From the sequence record NC_073055.1: a DNA stretch of 44,488 nt; one strand, given 5' to 3'. Of the stretch, positions 7,158 through 41,183 are shown piece by piece (the first letter of the stretch is position 1; every line of letters begins with the position of its first letter). The position numbers and the translations under genes are program-made. The notes beneath the pieces were generated by a model that saw only the letters and a program-made list of their open reading frames with translations, did not search any database and was not told the DNA's origin. The DNA is from Escherichia phage vB_EcoD_Opt212.

Positions 7158-7240
7158 GCAACCAATGCGCGCAAAATTTAATCTTTTAGCGATATGGGAA
7201 TTCCCATATCGGCAACCAATACGCGCAAAATTTAATCTTT
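7158..7240. promoter_or_regulatory. 22-bp perfect palindrome CGATATGGGAATTCCCATATCG (7190..7211) flanked by two ~29-bp direct repeats
   Basis: direct reading; repeats GGCAACCAAT(G/A)CGCGCAAAATTTAATCTTT; second copy overlaps primase stop. Confidence 0.7.
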
Positions 7241-9496
7241 CAGGTCGTCATCGGTCGCAGAAAGCGTGATGGGTATATTCGTTTTGATGACTATATTCGA
7301 CGACCCATAGATGGCCCCGGTGTGCGGATCGGTATAAAAACCTAACACTCCGCGCTCAACCATATCGTCTATTGCCTTCGTAGATGTGCCACCTTTTGCC
7401 AATCCCGCCTGGCGGACAATTGCCGATTTGCTGAATCCGGTATGGTCCGGGTTATCTTCCATCAGTTTTTCCAGTGCCGCATAAAGCACTTTCTCTTTTT
7501 CGTTGCGCGGTCCTGCGGCATTCTCGTCCTTAACCGCGGCCTTGCCAGCCGCCTTCGCCTGTTCTATAGCGAACGGTGCCAGGGCGACCGGTACGAGGTA
7601 GAGAGTCTCGTCGCGTGGCGTGGAGGCAATCGGCTTGACGTCCCATCCGGCAACCACGTCGCCGAAGTCTGGCCCGGTGCTGGTGGACTGGTGCGCCTCG
7701 AACGCTTCTGACTTGCGGAGATCCACCTTCACCTTGCACTTGAGCAGGACGAAGCCACGCGGCGCTTGCTTGATGCCGTTACGTGCCTTTTCGTGATACA
7801 GGTTCAATTGGCCTGGCTGGTTGTCGTCCGGCTGTTCCAGGAAGAACGCAGAATCGACAGCGCCATGCAGCGCGCCGGACCCGCGGGGGGTTCTGCTGCC
7901 GTTTGCACCCTTCGCCGGGTGGTGGATGACGCCCGCACTGCCACCTGTATTTTCCGCGATGGCCTTCAGCGCTTTGACCACTTCACCCATATCGCTGGCG
8001 TTGTTCTCGTCGAACGGTTTAGCATCCGCGGACCGCAACGCAACAGTCTGGTTGAGTGAGTCGAACGCCACCAGGCCAACCGGTTCGCCGTTAGCGGTGC
8101 GGTTGATGAAGCTGATAACTTCACGCAAGCCGGATTTGCTGGTGATATCCCAGCCGCGTGATTGCAGATCGATAATGTGCAGCTTGTCCAGGTCGTGCTC
8201 ATATTTAATCTGCAATGCTTCTTTGCGCTGGTTAGAGGCTTCGCCACCTTCCGCGTCGAAATAGAAGCAATGAGACTGGACGACCTTCGCACCGCCGAAC
8301 GGAATACCAGCGGCAACCGCGCCCATCTGCCCCAGCACGTAGAACGATTTACCGATGTTCGACTCACCCGCCATATACCAGGTTGATTTAAAGTTAATCA
8401 ACCCCTCGATAATCGGGTCGTGCTTACTGAACAGCGCAACCGGCTCGTTATCCAGATCCGCATCGGTGCACACGCCGTATTCTTCGCCGTCGCCAACCGC
8501 ATCCACAATATGTTCATATAAGGATTCGACTTCCTCGTCGTCCAGCCCTGGGAGGATGGCGGCGATTTGCTTACGGGACATGTTGTGCGGCTCGACGTTC
8601 AGGTGGTCCGGTATCCCGATGAGACGTAGCGCCAGGTGCTGGTGTCTGTTCAGTTCCGAGCAACACTCGTTGCCGGTGTGCATACACTTGAAACGGATCT
8701 CGCCATCCTTAACCATGATAGCGGTGGACCCTTCACCACTGTGCAGGTGTTCGTTCGGGCATGGCACTTCATAACCACGACCGGACGACAGCGGTTCGAA
8801 TCCTGCCTGGAAGCACCAGTCCAGAATGCCGTCTGCCACTGCGTCGTCGCCCTGGGTAAGCTCGCGGCGTACTTCCTCTTTTTCCACCCCCAGCTTATCA
8901 GCCAGGCGAAGCAGACGACGGACGCGGGCACGTTTGCCGTAGTGACACTTAACAACCGATTGCTGGTGAGGCAGGTACATAAGGCGGTTTGTGTCTTTCG
9001 TGCAATCGTCGAAGTCCACATCTGACAGGCCCAGTTGGTGTAATAGTGCATACTGGACGCGGCCCAGGTCTTCCGCCGGTACAGGCTTGTCAGTGAGCAC
9101 CAGGAAACGAGCGCAACGCGTGCCGCCTTTCAGCGGGTGGCGGTCGCCGGTAGTGGTGTGGAAGACGTGCTCCAGTCCCGCGTCGATGAACGCCTTACGG
9201 CAGCGGCGCAGGGTGCGGGTGTCGGTGCGGTCAATATCAAAGAACAGGATCGAGCGGTCCACGGCACTGGTCTTGCGGCGTAAGCCGTCACGGGTATAAG
9301 CCACAATACCATCAGCCTTACGCTTGCGGCGCGCATACTCCGCTTTATCTTCCGTCTTGTTGATATGCACCGAGGATATTTCTTTCGCATCATTAATAAA
9401 TTCGAAAAACTCATCGGTGGTCATCTGGAAGTTTTCCGCCCTGGCTTTTTCGCCTTTTTTAGCGGGTCGTGTTACAGCGAATTTAATTAAGCTCAT
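7232..9496 (-). CDS. DNA primase/helicase (primase-polymerase-like N-terminus, P-loop NTPase, C-terminal wHTH)
   Basis: 754 aa; Walker A-like GESNIGKSF; Cys/His cluster; acidic FFDIDRTD segment. Confidence 0.75.
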   Translation of the reverse strand: MSLIKFAVTRPAKKGEKARAENFQMTTDEFFEFINDAKEISSVHINKTEDKAEYARRKRKADGIVAYTRDGLRRKTSAVDRSILFFDIDRTDTRTLRRCRKAFIDAGLEHVFHTTTGDRHPLKGGTRCARFLVLTDKPVPAEDLGRVQYALLHQLGLSDVDFDDCTKDTNRLMYLPHQQSVVKCHYGKRARVRRLLRLADKLGVEKEEVRRELTQGDDAVADGILDWCFQAGFEPLSSGRGYEVPCPNEHLHSGEGSTAIMVKDGEIRFKCMHTGNECCSELNRHQHLALRLIGIPDHLNVEPHNMSRKQIAAILPGLDDEEVESLYEHIVDAVGDGEEYGVCTDADLDNEPVALFSKHDPIIEGLINFKSTWYMAGESNIGKSFYVLGQMGAVAAGIPFGGAKVVQSHCFYFDAEGGEASNQRKEALQIKYEHDLDKLHIIDLQSRGWDITSKSGLREVISFINRTANGEPVGLVAFDSLNQTVALRSADAKPFDENNASDMGEVVKALKAIAENTGGSAGVIHHPAKGANGSRTPRGSGALHGAVDSAFFLEQPDDNQPGQLNLYHEKARNGIKQAPRGFVLLKCKVKVDLRKSEAFEAHQSTSTGPDFGDVVAGWDVKPIASTPRDETLYLVPVALAPFAIEQAKAAGKAAVKDENAAGPRNEKEKVLYAALEKLMEDNPDHTGFSKSAIVRQAGLAKGGTSTKAIDDMVERGVLGFYTDPHTGAIYGSSNIVIKTNIPITLSATDDDLKD

Positions 9497-9506
9497 TGCC
9501 GTGGCC

Positions 9507-9836
9507 TTACTTAGAAGTTTTATTATTGCGTACCCAGGAGCGCACTGTGCTCTGATTAATTCCGGTTAGCTCTGCAATCATCGCCCATGATTTGCCCTCG
9601 GCGCGCAAACGGATAACCTGTTTTTTGTATTCTTCCATTTCTTCATTGTGTTTTTGCAGCTTGCTTGCTGCCGTGCCGTTGAGCAATTCCAGCTTCGCGG
9701 TAAGCTCCTTCTCAGCACGCGATAATCTGGACACTTCAAATAACAGAGTATCCACCGCATTTGTGTAATACCAGGATTTACCCGCTTCGCCGCGGATTGC
9801 ATTAGATAACACTTCAATTGCTTCTTTGATATTCAT
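9507..9836 (-). CDS. small HTH DNA-binding protein (putative regulator)
   Basis: 109 aa; C-terminal HTH (GKSWAMIAELTGINQSTVRSWV); first gene of leftward operon. Confidence 0.6.
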   Translation of the reverse strand: MNIKEAIEVLSNAIRGEAGKSWYYTNAVDTLLFEVSRLSRAEKELTAKLELLNGTAASKLQKHNEEMEEYKKQVIRLRAEGKSWAMIAELTGINQSTVRSWVRNNKTSK

Positions 9837-10046: not shown

Positions 10047-10242
10047 TCACTCCGTCGACAGGATGCAGGACGCAAACTGGAGAGGGGCAACGAAGGGGCC
10101 GGATCGAAGTGTCAGGATTCCCAACCGTGATTATATAACCAGGTCCACTACCCGAACGGGAGAACGCGTAACCTGGCAATATGTTAAGGCCACCGACGAA
10201 GTTAACTGCCGACACCTAAACTTAACCAATCGGAGATATACC

Positions 10243-10758
10243 ATGTTTGAGCAAATCGTAAACCTGATCACTCGCGGAGTAGTAGCACTGGAAACCATTG
10301 CAAAGCATTATGAAACCGTTGGCGCTGCCGTTGGTAAACAGGAAGATAAGAAGCCGTCTAAGGCCAAAAAAGAAGTTGTCGAAGATGACGACGATGAAGC
10401 TGAAGACGAAAAACCGGCTAAATCTAAAAAAACACCGGCGAAATGTAAGGCTAAAAAAGAAGTCGTAGAAGATGACGACGACGATGCCGAAGACGAAAAA
10501 CCGGCTAAGTCTAAAAAAGCACCGGCGAAAGGCAAAGGTAAGAAAGATGCCGATCCGCTGGCAGAGATGCGCGACGAAATCAAACAGTATGCCGCGATTA
10601 TTGCCGGTGGTGACGATGACGACGCGAACGACGAATTTGATGATCTGCTGGAAGCGTTCGAAATTAAATCCATCGCCAAGCTGGAAGACGACGACGTTGA
10701 AGACTTCCACAAAGATTTAAAAGAAATCGTCGAAACCTATTTCGAACTGGAAGATTAA
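10243..10758 (+). CDS. acidic/basic tandem-repeat protein
   Basis: 171 aa from ATG with GGAG RBS (track ORF extends upstream without RBS); two ~28-aa repeats KAKKEVVEDDDDEAEDEKPAKSKK; acidic C-terminal half. Confidence 0.6.
   Translation: MFEQIVNLITRGVVALETIAKHYETVGAAVGKQEDKKPSKAKKEVVEDDDDEAEDEKPAKSKKTPAKCKAKKEVVEDDDDDAEDEKPAKSKKAPAKGKGKKDADPLAEMRDEIKQYAAIIAGGDDDDANDEFDDLLEAFEIKSIAKLEDDDVEDFHKDLKEIVETYFELED
10357..10533 (+). repeat. tandem ~84-bp coding repeat (2 copies)
   Basis: near-identical DNA and protein repeats inside 10243..10758. Confidence 0.7.
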
Positions 10759-17243: not shown

Positions 17244-18668
17244 ATGGCACGTTTCCGACGTCGCGAATATCAGAAGTTGATAACCGCGTTCATCCTCAAG
17301 CATAAGCGCTGCAATATTTGGGCGACAATGGGGTCGGGTAAAACCGGCGCGACCATGTGGGCGCTGAATAAAATGTTCCAGACTGGCATCCTGTCCAACC
17401 AGGATGACCGCGTACTGGTGCTGGCCCCGCTGCGCGTTGCGTCCGGCACATGGCCCCCGGAACAGGAGAAATGGCGCTTCCCAGCCTTGCTGGTAGTAGA
17501 CGGCACTGGGCCAGAGAAGGACCGCATCGCTGCGCTTGAGAGCGACGCTAACGTGGTTTGTATTAACTATGATGTAGTTGAGTGGCTGGTCGACTATTAC
17601 GGCGATGCGTGGCCCTTTACGGTCGTTGTTGCCGATGAATCGACTAAGCTGAAAGGCTATCGTAGCAAGCAGGGGAGCAAGCGCGCCCGCGCACTGGCAG
17701 CGATTGCACATAAACACGTCAAGCGCTGGATTAACCTTACCGGCACACCCGCACCAAACGGACTGAAAGACCTATGGGGGCAAACGTGGTTCATCGACGG
17801 CGGCGAACGCCTCGGCAGTAGCTATAAGGCATTTACCGACCGCTGGTTCATTAGCAAGCCTGTTAAGCCTGGCAGCTTCACTATGCAGCACGCTCCGCTA
17901 AAGAACTCCGAGAAAGAGATACAACAACGTCTGTCAGATGTATCCCTCACCGTTGACGCGGCGGAATACTTCGGGTGCGACAAGCCAATCTATACGCCGG
18001 TTGTTGTGGACCTGCCGAAGAAAGCGCGTAAGATTTATGACCAGTTTGAAAGCGAGCTATTTGCAGAACTGGAAAGCGGAACAGTGGAAGCGGCGAACGC
18101 GGCGTCGAAGACAATTAAGTGCCTTCAGCTTGCTTCCGGCGCGGTGTATAAGGTGGACGAAGACGGCGAACGGACCGACGAGTGGGTGAAGATTCACGAC
18201 GCGAAGCTGGACGCGCTGGAAAGTATCGTGGAGGAGTTGAACGGTGCGCCGTTGCTCGTTGCGTATCAGTATAAGCATGACCTGGCACGTCTTAAGAAGA
18301 AATTTCCGCACGGCGTTGCGTTGGGTAAAGGAAAGCAGGGCAATAAGGATATGGAAGCATGGAACAGGGGCGAGATCCCCATCATGTTTGCACACCCGGC
18401 ATCGGCGGGCCACGGCCTTAACTTGCAGGACGGCGGTCATCACCTGGCAATCTTCTCCGACACCTGGAACTTTGAACACTTTTCGCAGATCGTTGAACGT
18501 ATCGGGCCGGTTCGCCAGATGCAAGCCGGACACCCTCGACCAGTATTCGTCTACATTATCCAGGCTCGCGGGACACTGGACGAATTGGTCGCCGAGCGTC
18601 GCGACAGTAAGCGAGACATTCAGGACGACTTGATGGAATACATGAAAGCTAAGAAGGCGCGCAAATGA
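17244..18668 (+). CDS. SNF2-family (DEAD-like) helicase
   Basis: 474 aa; Walker A GSGKTG; DExx box VVADEST; LTGTPAPN motif; start moved to ATG after upstream stop. Confidence 0.85.
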   Translation: MARFRRREYQKLITAFILKHKRCNIWATMGSGKTGATMWALNKMFQTGILSNQDDRVLVLAPLRVASGTWPPEQEKWRFPALLVVDGTGPEKDRIAALESDANVVCINYDVVEWLVDYYGDAWPFTVVVADESTKLKGYRSKQGSKRARALAAIAHKHVKRWINLTGTPAPNGLKDLWGQTWFIDGGERLGSSYKAFTDRWFISKPVKPGSFTMQHAPLKNSEKEIQQRLSDVSLTVDAAEYFGCDKPIYTPVVVDLPKKARKIYDQFESELFAELESGTVEAANAASKTIKCLQLASGAVYKVDEDGERTDEWVKIHDAKLDALESIVEELNGAPLLVAYQYKHDLARLKKKFPHGVALGKGKQGNKDMEAWNRGEIPIMFAHPASAGHGLNLQDGGHHLAIFSDTWNFEHFSQIVERIGPVRQMQAGHPRPVFVYIIQARGTLDELVAERRDSKRDIQDDLMEYMKAKKARK

Positions 18669-18865
18669 CTATTGCGAAAATGACAATCTGGTCACTGTTT
18701 GACGGCAGCGGCTTTCGTATGCCAGAGAAAAAGCCTGTATTCGTTGAAAAAGGGTACTCGAAGCAGTATAGTCGCCTCGGAGGCAAATCAGCCCGCACAA
18801 AATTAATCCGGTCGCTCACTCCGCGCGGCTTCGCGATAGCGGTTAACGAGGAAAATTTAAAATGA
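18665..18865 (+). CDS. hypothetical protein
   Basis: 66 aa, ATGA overlaps. Confidence 0.45.
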   Translation: MTIAKMTIWSLFDGSGFRMPEKKPVFVEKGYSKQYSRLGGKSARTKLIRSLTPRGFAIAVNEENLK

Positions 18866-19179
18866 CATTCGAAGCCATCGATTTTTCGGTTGCAATGACT
18901 AACCAGTTATTCTCCTACGACAGCAAAACCGGCGTCATTCGTCTGAAGTCCACCGGCTGCAAAATTGGCAACCTCAATACCGCCGATGGCGGAACACGTA
19001 TCGAATACAACGGCAAGACGCTGTCTGGCGCACGCGTGGCGTGGATTATTGAGACGGGCAATACAATCCCTCCAGGCTTCGCAGTTGTGTGCCGCCAGCG
19101 CACTCCAGGGCACTACGGCAACCGCATAAGCAACCTTTATCTGGTAGACGTCGCACGCGACCCGAACTTTTATGCGTAA
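18862..19179 (+). CDS. HNH/NUMOD4-like endonuclease homologue, catalytic His not evident
   Basis: 105 aa; YDSKTGVIRLK, EYNGKTLSGARVAW, GNRISNLYLV pattern resembles phage HNH_3 proteins but DH motif replaced by CRQR. Confidence 0.45.
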   Translation: MTFEAIDFSVAMTNQLFSYDSKTGVIRLKSTGCKIGNLNTADGGTRIEYNGKTLSGARVAWIIETGNTIPPGFAVVCRQRTPGHYGNRISNLYLVDVARDPNFYA

Positions 19180-19184
19180 ATTGG

Positions 19185-19213
19185 TTGCATAATCATATTG
19201 GTTGCATTATCTT
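19185..19213 (+). promoter_or_regulatory. candidate promoter (TTGCAT-N17-TATCTT) within tandem ATTGGTTGCAT motifs
   Basis: hexamers read directly; immediately precedes a terminator hairpin, so assignment is uncertain. Confidence 0.3.
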
Positions 19214-19246
19214 AAGGGTGTTCCGAAGGGAACGCCCTTTTTTTTA
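19214..19246 (+). terminator. rho-independent terminator
   Basis: GGGTGTTCC/GGAACGCCC stem followed by T8. Confidence 0.65.
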
Positions 19247-19262
19247 ATATGAGGATTTGACG

Positions 19263-40608: not shown

Positions 40609-40638
40609 TTGCAATCCGCGTATTGGTTGCACTATATT
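40609..40638 (+). promoter_or_regulatory. candidate promoter TTGCAA-N18-TATATT with tandem ATTGGTTGCAC motifs
   Basis: direct reading; upstream of plus-strand island. Confidence 0.4.
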
Positions 40639-40667
40639 GGTTGCACACCAACAACGAGGACACAAAA

Positions 40668-41183
40668 ATGAGACTGACAAAAGACATTAAAAACCAGATT
40701 CTGGCTAACATCCTGCGCGACCACGAAATCGCGACCGAAGCCAAATCAATCATGATGGACTCTCGAAATCTGGCGTACGCCATTACGATGGACTGTATGC
40801 CGGAAGGCATTCATTCGTTCGCCGAGCTACGTGAGCGCATTGCAGCAATCGGCGGTGACCCGTCGCAGATGTACGGCGTCTGTGTGTACACCAACAAGGC
40901 GACGTATAGACATGACGCCGACAGCCCATATGGTGTAGGCAGCGTTTACGACGCCACTTTCGAAATCAACGCAGGCGGAAACGTCCGTACCGTGTCATTG
41001 AGCGGAGACGGACACCGAGTCCGAGTATATCGCGGATACGGGGAGTATAAATACATGAATAAACTGTCTCCCGATCTCGGCGATATTGTGCCTGGGTATG
41101 AGGAAATTTTGTTAGCGTCAGTGTGCGAAGTCGATGACGACGGGAAAGCGCTGCCGATATATATATGCCACGCGGTCGTATAG
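40668..41183 (+). CDS. hypothetical protein (opposite-strand island gene 1)
   Basis: 171 aa; GAGGAC RBS; no recognisable motifs. Confidence 0.55.
   Translation: MRLTKDIKNQILANILRDHEIATEAKSIMMDSRNLAYAITMDCMPEGIHSFAELRERIAAIGGDPSQMYGVCVYTNKATYRHDADSPYGVGSVYDATFEINAGGNVRTVSLSGDGHRVRVYRGYGEYKYMNKLSPDLGDIVPGYEEILLASVCEVDDDGKALPIYICHAVV

What the first reader, a model, noticed from the sequence alone, without database searches (positions are those of the whole stretch)
18862..19179. HNH/NUMOD4-like protein that appears to lack the catalytic histidine
The sequence follows the pattern of phage HNH_3 homing-endonuclease-like proteins, but the usual DH dyad is replaced by CRQR. This suggests an inactivated or repurposed DNA-binding domain.
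Basis: partly seen in the sequence, partly recalled or inferred. Interest (0 to 1): 0.35.

Follow-up and report, generated by a model that had tools for sequence, protein, structure and literature searches.

The report
Degenerate HNH-like core gene of Dhillonviruses
A small phage gene that databases label "HNH/homing endonuclease" has the endonuclease fold but has lost the residues that cut DNA, yet is strictly conserved, so it is most likely a repurposed non-cutting (probably DNA-binding) protein.

Summary
The window is a Dhillonvirus-type E. coli siphophage genome. ORF 18862-19179 (+, 105 aa) is real and is the core gene that GenBank records call "putative HNH/homing endonuclease"; it is present in 160 phage records.

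It is homologous to the phage HNH_3(-AP2) endonuclease family (phrog_99 E=2.6e-16; hhalign 98.8%). A confident AlphaFold model (pLDDT 91) matches only I-HmuI in the PDB.

Three residues are invariant in 118 canonical relatives: the His of "AHR", and the Asp and His of "DH" (I-HmuI D74/H75). Here they are A57, V76 and C77. The helix that should carry the metal-binding Asn is a short coil, the AP2 DNA-binding domain is absent, and the Pfam HNH_3 threshold is not met.

One caveat remains. H84 is invariant in the clade, and one MAFFT mode places it under the catalytic His. Five other alignments do not.

The gene is under strong purifying selection (dN/dS about 0.04). It is fixed at one locus, whereas Jerseyviruses carry a canonical, sporadic HNH_3-AP2 gene at the equivalent position.

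Verdict: a domesticated, probably inactive homing-endonuclease remnant. This is a new variant of a known kind, of modest interest.

The parts
18862..19179 (+). CDS of the 105-aa degenerate HNH_3/I-HmuI-like protein (stop codon included)
   Evidence: ORF list. phrog_99 E=2.6e-16. 160 phage records carry it. dN/dS about 0.04. AlphaFold pLDDT 91.3.
18848..18865 (+). Translation start region: a GAGG Shine-Dalgarno-like site (18848-18851) and an ATGA start/stop overlap (18862-18865) with the upstream dcm-remnant ORF
   Evidence: Read directly from the sequence. The same overlap with a full-length dcm is seen in phage bob.
18910..19026 (+). N-terminal antiparallel beta-sheet domain (about residues 17-55; 'YDxxTG...G..I..NGK'), equivalent to the major-groove-reading sheet of I-HmuI
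   Evidence: AlphaFold strands E17-19, E26-28, E44-49, E52-55. This region carries the HMM match to canonical relatives, residues 12-68. The Foldseek alignment to 1u3e spans 97 columns. The role of the sheet in I-HmuI is taken from PMC3384342.
19027..19149 (+). Degenerate HNH_3 core (residues 56-96): helix 56-65 ('ARVAW', where canonical proteins have 'AHRLAW'), beta1 at 73-77, a loop with a 2-residue insertion, and beta2 at 92-96
19030..19032 (+). A57 codon. It replaces the His of 'AHR', which is 118/118 conserved in canonical relatives.
   Evidence: Column counts. The same loss occurs in the other degenerate copies P0014 N-domain, P0015 and P0018 N-domain.
19087..19092 (+). V76-C77 codons. 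They occupy the positions of the metal-binding Asp and general-base His (I-HmuI D74-H75).
   Evidence: hhalign, G-INS-i, MAFFT with bridging sequence, the I-HmuI sequence. C77 ends strand beta1 in the model.
19111..19113 (+). H84 codon: the only His in the protein. It is invariant in the clade and lies in the loop/helical turn after beta1. Canonical relatives have Arg or Lys here.
19120..19137 (+). Retained structural motif N87-R88-x-x-N91-L92 (the 'DNRxxNL' of HNH_3)
   Evidence: Columns are 117-118/118 conserved in canonical relatives and are kept here.
19150..19176 (+). Short C-terminal tail (residues 97-105, 'VARDPNFYA'), where the alpha-helix with the metal-binding Asn should be. D100 (19159-19161) aligns with I-HmuI N96 in some alignments. 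There is no AP2 or HTH domain after it.
   Evidence: The model shows coil with mean pLDDT 69 for the last block. D100 aligns with the Asn but not in A6. 77 of 127 aligned proteins carry AP2 and this one does not.
19180..19211 (+). Two direct copies of ATTGGTTGCATWATC directly after the stop codon. They read as a sigma-70-like promoter (-35 TTGCAT, 17 nt, -10 TATCTT) and belong to a genome-wide TTGGTTGC motif.
   Evidence: A similar pair lies directly after the homologous gene in L019.
19214..19247 (+). Intrinsic terminator (11-bp stem, 4-nt loop, T8) that ends the helicase-dcm-HNH-like transcription unit
   Evidence: Terminator scan. RNA fold -24.4 kcal/mol, z=-3.3.
18665..18865 (+). Upstream neighbour: a 66-aa remnant of the Dcm cytosine methyltransferase gene with an internal deletion of about 500 bp
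   Evidence: Alignment with phage bob. phrog_757 matches only profile positions 169-218 of 247. No listed record shares the deletion.
17244..18668 (+). SNF2-family DNA helicase, the conserved upstream neighbour of the gene in every lineage
   Evidence: phrog_62 E=1e-156. Synteny.

Best explanation
The gene encodes a domesticated, catalytically inert remnant of a free-standing HNH_3-AP2 (I-HmuI-like) homing endonuclease.

Shown:
- It keeps the N-terminal beta-sheet domain and the scaffold of the HNH_3 core (R58, W61, P70, N87-R88, N91-L92).
- The general-base His, the adjacent metal-binding Asp and a third family-invariant His are replaced by C77, V76 and A57.
- The helix that should carry the metal-binding Asn is reduced to a short tail.
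- The C-terminal AP2 DNA-binding domain is absent.
- The gene is fixed at one locus, translationally coupled to dcm, and is the last gene of the SNF2-helicase operon before a strong terminator.
- It evolves under strong purifying selection.

Inferred:
- It no longer cleaves DNA.
- It is retained because the surviving I-HmuI-like surface (the beta-sheet that reads the major groove, plus the basic HNH scaffold) binds DNA, or a DNA structure, without cutting. It would act as an accessory or regulatory factor of the early/replication gene module.
- It arose from a homing endonuclease that inserted behind the helicase gene, as still happens in Jerseyviruses, and was then co-opted.
For: Homology and fold:
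- phrog_99 E=2.6e-16; hhalign 98.8%, E=8.7e-16.
- AlphaFold model pLDDT 91.3, pTM 0.84.
- The only PDB match is I-HmuI 1u3e (probability 0.99, TMq 0.56, 97 columns).
- An independently built BFVD model of a Dhillonvirus orthologue superposes at TM 0.95, rmsd 0.9 A. About 60 phage HNH endonucleases follow at E<=1e-3.

Loss of the catalytic set:
- In 118 canonical relatives the columns are H 118/118, D 118/118 and H 118/118. The 8 clade members have A/P/L, V/T/R and C/P.
- Anchoring on I-HmuI gives D74-H75 = V76-C77.
- H75 as general base and the helix Asn as metal ligand are from PMC3384342.
- Pfam HNH_3 is hit by 119 of 127 aligned proteins but by none of the 8 clade members. The window protein scores 13.2 bits against a 24.8 cutoff.
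- Other degenerate copies (P0015, and the first domains of P0014 and P0018) lost the 'AHR' His and the 'DH' dyad together. This suggests that these residues work as one functional unit.
- The tail at 97-105 is coil, and no AP2 domain is present.

Still functional:
- Median pairwise dN/dS is 0.036 at mean dS 0.62 over 15 genes. The stretch AVVCRQRTPGHYGNR is invariant.
- 160 records carry the protein, most at >95% identity.
- Homologues at 35-40% identity exist in Eiauvirus and two metagenomic phages, always just downstream of the SNF2 helicase.

Origin:
- About 53 Jerseyvirus records carry a canonical 163-aa HNH_3-AP2 gene immediately after the orthologous helicase. This is out of about 500 records whose helicase is 60-80% identical (a set that also includes Eiauvirus and a few other genera). 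Others, such as LP31, lack it.

Hints of DNA binding in the clade (all below threshold):
- The eiAU homologue has an N-terminal I-HmuI_NUMOD-like motif, E=3.2e-4.
- P0008 has a C-terminal HTH-like segment, E=0.04-0.1.
Against: - No biochemical test of cleavage or DNA binding exists, and no publication on this gene was found.
- H84 is invariant across the clade, and MAFFT auto/L-INS-i can place it under the catalytic His.
- Beta-beta-alpha-Me enzymes with an unconventional base exist; R.PacI uses Tyr (PMC3384342).
- D100, or a neighbouring acidic residue in relatives, could still bind a metal.
- The AlphaFold model was built on the alignment that puts C77 under His.
- Without the AP2/HTH module, DNA affinity may be low.
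- Synteny with the helicase may only reflect the ancestral insertion site, not a functional link.
Confidence: 0.6

Rival explanations
1. It is still a nuclease or nickase with a rearranged active site. The invariant H84 (possibly with Y85) has taken over as general base, and D96/D100 bind the metal. The GenBank label 'HNH endonuclease' would then be functionally right.
For: - H84 is invariant in all 8 clade members down to 35% identity, while the canonical position is R/K.
- MAFFT auto/L-INS-i aligns H84 with the catalytic His.
- An acidic or Asn residue is found at or next to the metal-Asn position in all four lineages.
- There is precedent for replaced bases: R.PacI, His to Tyr (PMC3384342).
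Against: - That alignment needs an 8-residue insertion plus a 5-residue deletion and removes the beta-hairpin loop. Five other procedures never put H84 in the His column: hhalign, G-INS-i, E-INS-i, hmmalign, and MAFFT with the bridging sequence.
- In the model H84 lies in a helical turn after beta1, not at the end of beta1.
- The metal-binding Asp position is hydrophobic or variable (V/T/R).
- The alpha-helix of the beta-beta-alpha-Me motif is not formed.
- The co-lost 'AHR' His is not compensated.
Confidence: 0.15
2. It is a non-catalytic protein that works through protein-protein contacts rather than DNA binding, for example as an accessory subunit or regulator of the SNF2 helicase or another replication protein, or as an anti-defence decoy.
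For: - The gene lies immediately downstream of the SNF2 helicase in Dhillonvirus, Eiauvirus and the L019 lineage.
- It has lost the dedicated AP2 DNA-binding domain.
- It has clade-specific invariant residues with no counterpart in canonical enzymes: the D-F-S motif at 7-9, G44 and T65.
Against: - The same position behind the helicase is used by a mobile canonical HNH gene in Jerseyviruses, so adjacency can be inherited from the insertion site.
- The retained parts are those that contact DNA in I-HmuI.
- Relatives carry extra DNA-binding-like modules.
- No partner is indicated by any result.
Confidence: 0.15
3. It is a decaying relic (pseudogene in progress) of a homing endonuclease, with no function.
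For: - Catalytic residues and the AP2 domain are lost.
- One record, SSL-2009a, has a frameshifted C-terminal third.
Against: - dN/dS is about 0.04 with dS about 0.6.
- The ORF is intact in 159 of 160 records.
- It is conserved across genera at 35-40% identity.
- It has a confident compact fold.
Confidence: 0.03

Closest known systems
I-HmuI (Bacillus phage SPO1 intron-encoded HNH nicking homing endonuclease, PDB 1U3E)
   Same: It is the only PDB structural match (Foldseek probability 0.99, 97 aligned columns) and is also found by profile search (E=1.7e-5). The N-terminal beta-sheet domain followed by the HNH_3-type core is the same. G-x-V-V-[D-H] aligns with G72-F-A-V-[V76-C77], and the NL motif is kept.
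   Different: I-HmuI has D74/H75/N96, the alpha-helix of the beta-beta-alpha-Me motif, two further helices and a C-terminal HTH (174 aa). It nicks DNA. The window protein (105 aa) has V/C/(D), no helix and no C-terminal DNA-binding module. It is not intron-encoded and is not sporadic.
Free-standing phage HNH_3-AP2 endonucleases (Pfam PF13392 + PF00847; e.g. Salmonella phage Jersey gp35/SLMP1 HNH, Xanthomonas phage Xp10 p57R, Xop411 p55.1)
   Same: They are the closest sequence family, with the same N-terminal 'YDpeTG...G...ngk' domain and 'RxAW...P...NRxxNL' scaffold. In Jerseyviruses such a gene sits at the equivalent place, directly after the orthologous SNF2 helicase.
   Different: These proteins are about 165 aa and have invariant AHR, DH and (s)eN residues plus an AP2 domain. 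All pass the Pfam HNH_3 threshold, and their distribution is sporadic. The window protein lacks all of these residues and the AP2 domain, fails the threshold, and is a fixed core gene.
Degenerate HNH_3 copies in other proteins (P0015 with AP2; the first domains of tandem proteins P0014 and P0018)
   Same: They show independent loss of the same residues. P0015 also has V-C in place of D-H and A in place of the AHR His.
   Different: They keep an AP2 domain or a second, canonical HNH_3 domain in the same polypeptide. The window protein is a stand-alone degenerate module with a 2-residue loop insertion and an invariant 'GHY'.
SMAD MH1 domain / plant AP2-ERF factors (DNA-binding proteins derived from beta-beta-alpha-Me or HNH-AP2 endonucleases)
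   Same: They offer a functional analogy only. In SMAD MH1 a nuclease scaffold with 'devolved' catalytic residues keeps its DNA-binding surface (PMC3384342).
   Different: There is no detectable sequence relationship and the biology is different (eukaryotic transcription factors). DNA binding by the phage protein has not been shown.

Membership tests
Pfam HNH_3 (PF13392) | Whole-protein score at or above the gathering threshold (24.8 bits) | tested here: not met
   13.2 bits, E=0.071. Only residues 58-75 match profile positions 5-21 of 46. None of the 8 clade members hit at E<=0.01, while 119 of 127 aligned proteins do.
Pfam HNH_3 (PF13392) | Homology to family members (common descent) | tested here: met
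   hhalign against 117 HNH_3 proteins gives 98.8%, E=8.7e-16. hmmsearch with the canonical profile gives E=3e-8. phrog_99 gives 2.6e-16.
HNH / beta-beta-alpha-Me nucleases | General-base His at the end of beta1 (I-HmuI H75), preceded by the metal-binding Asp (D74) | tested here: not met
   V76-C77 occupy these positions in hhalign, G-INS-i, MAFFT with bridging sequence, and I-HmuI anchoring. hmmalign puts A74-V75 there. Only MAFFT auto/L-INS-i puts H84 there, with large indels.
HNH / beta-beta-alpha-Me nucleases | [quoted passage not shown] | tested here: inconclusive
   D100 aligns with it, but the tail is misaligned in A6. Relatives have Y/I/V at that position with D/D/N one residue earlier. 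The model shows coil, not a helix, for residues 97-105.
HNH / beta-beta-alpha-Me nucleases | Structural Asn and the NL motif of the hairpin ('DNRxxNL') | tested here: met
   N87, R88, N91 and L92 are present. The canonical columns are 117-118/118 conserved.
HNH / beta-beta-alpha-Me nucleases | Metal-dependent DNA cleavage | not testable with these tools
   This needs a nuclease assay.
I-HmuI-like fold | N-terminal antiparallel beta-sheet plus HNH core, superposable on 1U3E | tested here: met
   Foldseek probability 0.99, TMq 0.56, rmsd 4.1 A over 97 columns; it is the only PDB hit below E=1. The model has pLDDT 91.3.
NUMOD4 (PF07463) | Match to the Pfam model | tested here: not met
   There is no NUMOD4 hit at E<=10. 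None appears among the families hit by the 127 aligned proteins.
HNH_3-AP2 architecture | C-terminal AP2 (PF00847) or other DNA-binding module | tested here: not met
   The protein ends at residue 105. AP2 is found in 77 of 127 aligned proteins but not here. The downstream ORF is separated by a terminator and is unrelated (phrog_18961).
Mobile (free-standing) homing endonuclease gene | Sporadic presence or absence among closely related genomes | tested here: not met
   The protein is present in 160 records (156 after removing the 4 Edwardsiella phage records), against 162 records that match the surrounding 4-kb region. By contrast, the Jerseyvirus HNH_3-AP2 gene at the equivalent site is in about 53 of about 500 records.

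The most novel reading that the evidence does not exclude
The degenerate endonuclease has become a sequence-specific DNA reader for the phage's own regulatory motif.

The octamer TTGGTTGC occurs 20 times in this genome against 1.6 expected. It occurs 23 times in Edwardsiella phage eiAU (17 of them intergenic) and once in phage Jersey, which lacks the gene. The octamer sits in promoter spacers and over -35 elements, and in a cluster next to the primase-helicase gene. A pair lies directly after this gene's stop codon, both here and, as TGGTTGC, in the L019 lineage.

If the protein binds this motif, a domesticated homing endonuclease would be a global transcription or replication regulator shared by at least two phage genera.
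Probability: 0.1. Interest if true: 0.65.

Novelty: new variant of a known kind. Interest (0 to 1): 0.3.

Why it matters
About 160 deposited phage genomes, several from phage-therapy work, label this gene 'HNH endonuclease' or 'homing endonuclease'. The evidence here says the label describes its ancestry, not its activity.

It is a clear natural example of a selfish homing endonuclease being stripped down and kept as a core gene. It has lost the catalytic triad, the metal helix and the AP2 domain. A still-mobile canonical cousin sits at the same genomic position in a sister group, so loss and co-option can be compared directly.

The conserved function is unknown. That makes it a well-defined target for a knockout or a binding assay in model Dhillonviruses such as those of the BASEL collection.

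It does not open a new category. Inactive nuclease homologues used as binding modules are well known.

Tried and rejected
- AlphaFold with only the 5 close orthologues gave an unusable model (pLDDT 41.5). It was redone with 127 sequences.
- Single-sequence phmmer against PDB sequences found nothing. NCBIfam found nothing.
- The word-indexed protein search finds only the narrow clade. The exhaustive search gave 15 hits.
- The residue equivalence depends on the MAFFT mode. I therefore did not rely on any single alignment. I cross-checked with hhalign, hmmalign, a bridging sequence and the I-HmuI sequence.
- Literature searches ('Dhillonvirus' + 'HNH'; inactive or domesticated HNH) gave no paper on this gene. 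A Retron-Eco7 paper reports an unnamed Dhillonvirus trigger gene, but neither the text nor any held supplement identifies it.
- A functional link to Dcm was rejected. The window's dcm is deleted while this gene is intact, and the L019 lineage has no methyltransferase nearby.
- A split gene with AP2 encoded downstream was rejected.
- A paralogous canonical HNH_3 elsewhere in the window was looked for, and there is none.
- Scanning IMG/VR for paired TTGGTTGC motifs returned mostly chance or unrelated hits. It could not test the motif-protein link.
Full report
**What the window is**

A 4-kb stretch around the finding is 89-93% identical to Dhillonvirus genomes (Escherichia phages bob, Envy, Oekolampad and others). 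162 phage records match it. The local gene order in relatives is DNA polymerase I, small ORFs, SNF2-type helicase, Dcm cytosine methyltransferase, 'putative HNH/homing endonuclease', terminator, small ORFs, Dam methyltransferase, phosphatase.

**The observation**

- ORF 18862-19179 (+) encodes 105 aa.
- A GAGG lies 10 nt upstream of the ATG. The ATG overlaps the stop of the upstream ORF as ATGA.
- A strong intrinsic terminator follows at 19214-19247: 11-bp stem, T8, fold z=-3.3.
- The same protein is found by tblastn in 160 phage records, 152 of them at 90% identity or more. Four Edwardsiella (Eiauvirus) phage records are at about 40%.
- The annotation in those records is 'putative HNH endonuclease', 'homing endonuclease' or 'hypothetical protein'.

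**Is it an HNH_3 relative?**

- Pfam gives only a sub-threshold HNH_3 hit (13.2 bits against a 24.8 cutoff). It covers residues 58-75 and profile positions 5-21 of 46, and stops just before the catalytic motif. There is no NUMOD4 hit.
- PHROGs places the protein in phrog_99 'HNH endonuclease' at E=2.6e-16.
- An exhaustive profile search of 1.84 billion representatives found 15 proteins.
  - One group is a narrow clade with the same peculiarities: P0006, P0007 (eiAU gp31) and P0008.
  - The rest are canonical proteins of about 160-270 aa.
- A search with a mixed alignment returned 1098 proteins. The 120 listed are, apart from two Dhillonvirus orthologues, HNH_3 proteins, often with AP2.
- A profile built from 117 canonical proteins matches the window protein at E=3e-8 over residues 12-68.
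- Global profile-profile alignment gives 98.8% probability, E=8.7e-16.

Homology is secure. Pfam family membership by threshold is not met.

**Where are the catalytic residues?**

Taylor and Stoddard (PMC3384342) describe I-HmuI as follows. H75 is the general base. An Asn at the start of the motif's helix binds the metal. A small beta-sheet reads the major groove.

The I-HmuI sequence recovered reads ...EEG70-L-V-V-D74-H75-KDGNKDNNLSTNLRWVTQKIN96. The window protein reads ...PPG72-F-A-V-V76-C77-RQRTPGHYGNRISNLYLVDVARD100. So D74/H75 correspond to V76/C77, there is a 2-residue insertion in the following loop, and N96 corresponds to D100.

The same equivalence comes from four other procedures:
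- hhalign;
- MAFFT G-INS-i;
- the 18-sequence MAFFT alignment;
- MAFFT of 127 sequences once the bridging sequence P0015 is included.

P0015 aligns to canonical proteins without indels and also has V-C in place of D-H.

Other procedures differ in detail. hmmalign to the canonical N-terminal profile shifts by two residues (A74-V75 under D-H) and leaves H84 in an insertion. Only MAFFT auto/L-INS-i without P0015 puts the clade-invariant H84 under the catalytic His. That alignment requires an 8-residue insertion and a 5-residue deletion that removes the loop between the two strands.

| Column (window residue) | 118 canonical relatives | 8 clade members |
|---|---|---|
| 'AHR' His (A57) | H 118/118 | A/P/L |
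| Asp of 'DH' (V76) | D 118/118 | V/T/R |
| His of 'DH' (C77) | H 118/118 | C/P |
| N87 | N 117/118 | N/Q |
| R88 | R 109/118 | R 8/8 |
| N91 | N 118/118 | N 8/8 |
| L92 | L 115/118 | L 8/8 |

The scaffold residues are kept and the three invariant catalytic-set residues are not.

Three other degenerate copies seen in passing (P0015, and the first domains of P0014 and P0018) lost the 'AHR' His together with 'DH'. This suggests that these residues form one functional unit.

**Structure**

- With a 127-sequence alignment AlphaFold gives pLDDT 91.3 and pTM 0.84.
- The elements are helix 10-16, strands 17-19, 26-28, 44-49 and 52-55, helix 56-65, strand 73-77 (ending at C77), a loop with a helical turn at 84-87 (H84 is here), strand 92-96, and a coil tail at 97-105.
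- The alpha-helix of the beta-beta-alpha-Me motif is therefore not formed in the model. The protein ends five residues after D100.
- Foldseek against the PDB finds only I-HmuI (probability 0.99, TMq 0.56, 97 columns).
- Against BFVD, an independently predicted Dhillonvirus orthologue superposes at TM 0.95 and rmsd 0.9 A, and eiAU gp31 at TM 0.82. Many phage HNH endonucleases follow.
- Caveat: my model used the alignment with C77 under His, and I cannot inspect coordinates. The agreement with the BFVD model argues that the fold does not depend on that choice.

**Is it functional?**

- Fifteen Dhillonvirus genes give a median pairwise dN/dS of 0.036 at mean dS 0.62.
- The segment AVVCRQRTPGHYGNR is invariant in all of them.
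- One record, SSL-2009a, has a frameshift after residue 71.

This is not a decaying pseudogene.

**Context and origin**

- The gene always follows the SNF2 helicase:

| Lineage | Gene order |
|---|---|
| Dhillonvirus | helicase - dcm - X - terminator |
| eiAU | helicase - X - methyltransferase - dam |
| L019 contig | helicase - DUF7167 - X - ... - HAD phosphatase |

- Methyltransferases are not a constant neighbour. In this window dcm itself is largely deleted while X is intact. A functional dependence on Dcm is therefore unlikely.
- In Jerseyviruses the helicase is about 66% identical. There a canonical 163-aa HNH_3-AP2 gene sits directly after the helicase in SLMP1, Jersey and others. It is at 80% identity or more in about 53 records, out of about 500 records whose helicase is 60-80% identical. 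It is absent in others such as LP31. That is the sporadic pattern of a mobile homing endonuclease.
- The simplest history is inferred: such an element inserted behind the helicase in an ancestor of Dhillonvirus and Eiauvirus, lost its active site and AP2 domain, and was retained for a new role.
- The helicase adjacency may be nothing more than that history.

**What does it do?**

Nothing here tests activity.

- The retained parts are the ones that face DNA in I-HmuI.
- Two relatives carry extra DNA-binding-like modules at sub-threshold scores. eiAU gp31 has an N-terminal I-HmuI_NUMOD-like motif (E=3.2e-4). P0008 has a C-terminal HTH-like segment (E=0.04-0.1).
- The protein is mildly basic, as read from the sequence.

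I therefore favour a non-cutting DNA-binding accessory or regulator (confidence 0.6). The rivals are an unconventional H84-based nuclease (0.15), a protein-binding adaptor (0.15) and a functionless relic (0.03).

**A lead found in passing**

- Directly after the stop codon lie two copies of ATTGGTTGCATWATC (19180-19211).
- The core TTGGTTGC occurs 20 times in the window against 1.6 expected (sd 1.2, maximum 6 in 100 shuffles). The sites are often in pairs.
- The pairs show promoter-like arrangements, for example TTGCAA-N8-TTGGTTGC-AC-TATA(T/G)T at 40623 and 21109. The pair at 19181/19198 reads as -35 TTGCAT, 17 nt, -10 TATCTT and overlaps the terminator stem.
- eiAU has 23 copies, 17 of them in the 10% of its genome that is non-coding. 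Seven form a cluster next to the primase-helicase gene.
- Phage Jersey has one copy.
- The L019 contig has paired TGGTTGC directly after its X homologue.
- Among non-structural genes, only X, Dam and a 231-aa protein (10063-10758) are shared by the window and eiAU but absent from Jersey at tblastn E<=1e-4.
- The HTH proteins upstream of the primase differ in kind between the two phages.
- X is therefore one candidate reader of the motif. The primase-helicase, the 231-aa protein and host RNA polymerase are equally open. A scan of IMG/VR could not discriminate between them.
- I give this link a probability of about 0.1.

**Novelty and score**

The gene is already deposited many times under a misleading name. 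Its degenerate nature, fixation and likely domestication are not described in the literature I could search. Inactive nuclease homologues reused as binding modules are a familiar theme, for example SMAD MH1 (PMC3384342). This is a new variant of a known kind, of modest interest (0.3).

Noticed in passing
window 18665-18865 (compare L001 2666-3361): The Dcm cytosine-methyltransferase gene upstream has an internal deletion of about 500 bp between two GGCA(G/A)CGGCTT microhomologies. A 66-aa in-frame remnant is left, with the FDGSG motif fused to the C-terminal end and the catalytic PC motif gone. All 12 listed records of 152 matching phage records, the closest relative SM_W22 among them, align in two pieces spanning about 850 bp, i.e. 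carry the full-length gene. Phage Dcm is a known trigger of retron Eco1 (stated in PMC12916289), so this could be a defence-escape deletion.
   Followed up: partly
window, 20 sites (e.g. 7123/7158/7212 -, 12913/12929 -, 16740 +, 19181/19198 +, 21097 -/21109 +, 40623/40637 +); L023 (eiAU) 23 sites: The octamer TTGGTTGC is 12-fold over-represented (20 observed, 1.6 expected). It is mostly paired and promoter-associated (TTGCAA-N8-TTGGTTGC-AC-TATAnT). It is equally abundant in Edwardsiella phage eiAU (17 of 23 intergenic, with a 7-site cluster next to the primase-helicase gene) but nearly absent from Salmonella phage Jersey (1 site). It is probably a shared promoter, operator or iteron element. 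The protein that binds it is unknown.
   Followed up: partly
window 19180-19247: A promoter-like pair of repeats (-35 TTGCAT at 19186-19191, -10 TATCTT at 19209-19214) overlaps the 5' arm of the terminator hairpin (19214-19239). Transcripts from upstream would terminate there. Transcripts starting at this promoter would lack the 5' arm and read through.
   Followed up: no
L021 3922-4413 (Salmonella phage SLMP1); L024 26433-26918 (phage Jersey): A canonical 163-aa HNH_3-AP2 homing endonuclease sits immediately downstream of the orthologous SNF2 helicase in about 53 Jerseyvirus records and is absent in others such as LP31 (L022). This is the same genomic position as the degenerate Dhillonvirus gene.
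   Followed up: partly
L017 4001-4308 (Escherichia phage SSL-2009a; protein P0005): The orthologue in SSL-2009a is frameshifted after residue 71, which replaces the whole degenerate HNH core. This is either a sequencing error in an old record or a natural knockout.
   Followed up: no
P0007 (eiAU gp31) residues 38-57; P0008 residues 120-147 (L019 3112-3594): Distant members of the degenerate clade carry extra modules at sub-threshold Pfam scores. One is an N-terminal I-HmuI_NUMOD-like motif (E=3.2e-4). The other is a C-terminal helix-turn-helix-like segment (HTH_23 E=0.044).
   Followed up: partly
proteins P0014, P0018 (tandem), P0015: Other metagenomic proteins contain a degenerate HNH_3 module that has lost the AHR His and the DH dyad. 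It is fused to a second canonical HNH_3 module (P0014, P0018) or to an AP2 domain (P0015). Loss of the active site in this family is therefore recurrent.
   Followed up: no
window 9507-9836 (-), 7232-9496 (-), 40623-41183 (+): A 109-aa HTH_23/sigma-70 region-4-like protein lies just upstream of the 754-aa primase-helicase (AAA_25). An Nmad5 (nucleotide-modification-associated) domain protein starts at a TTGGTTGC pair.
   Followed up: no
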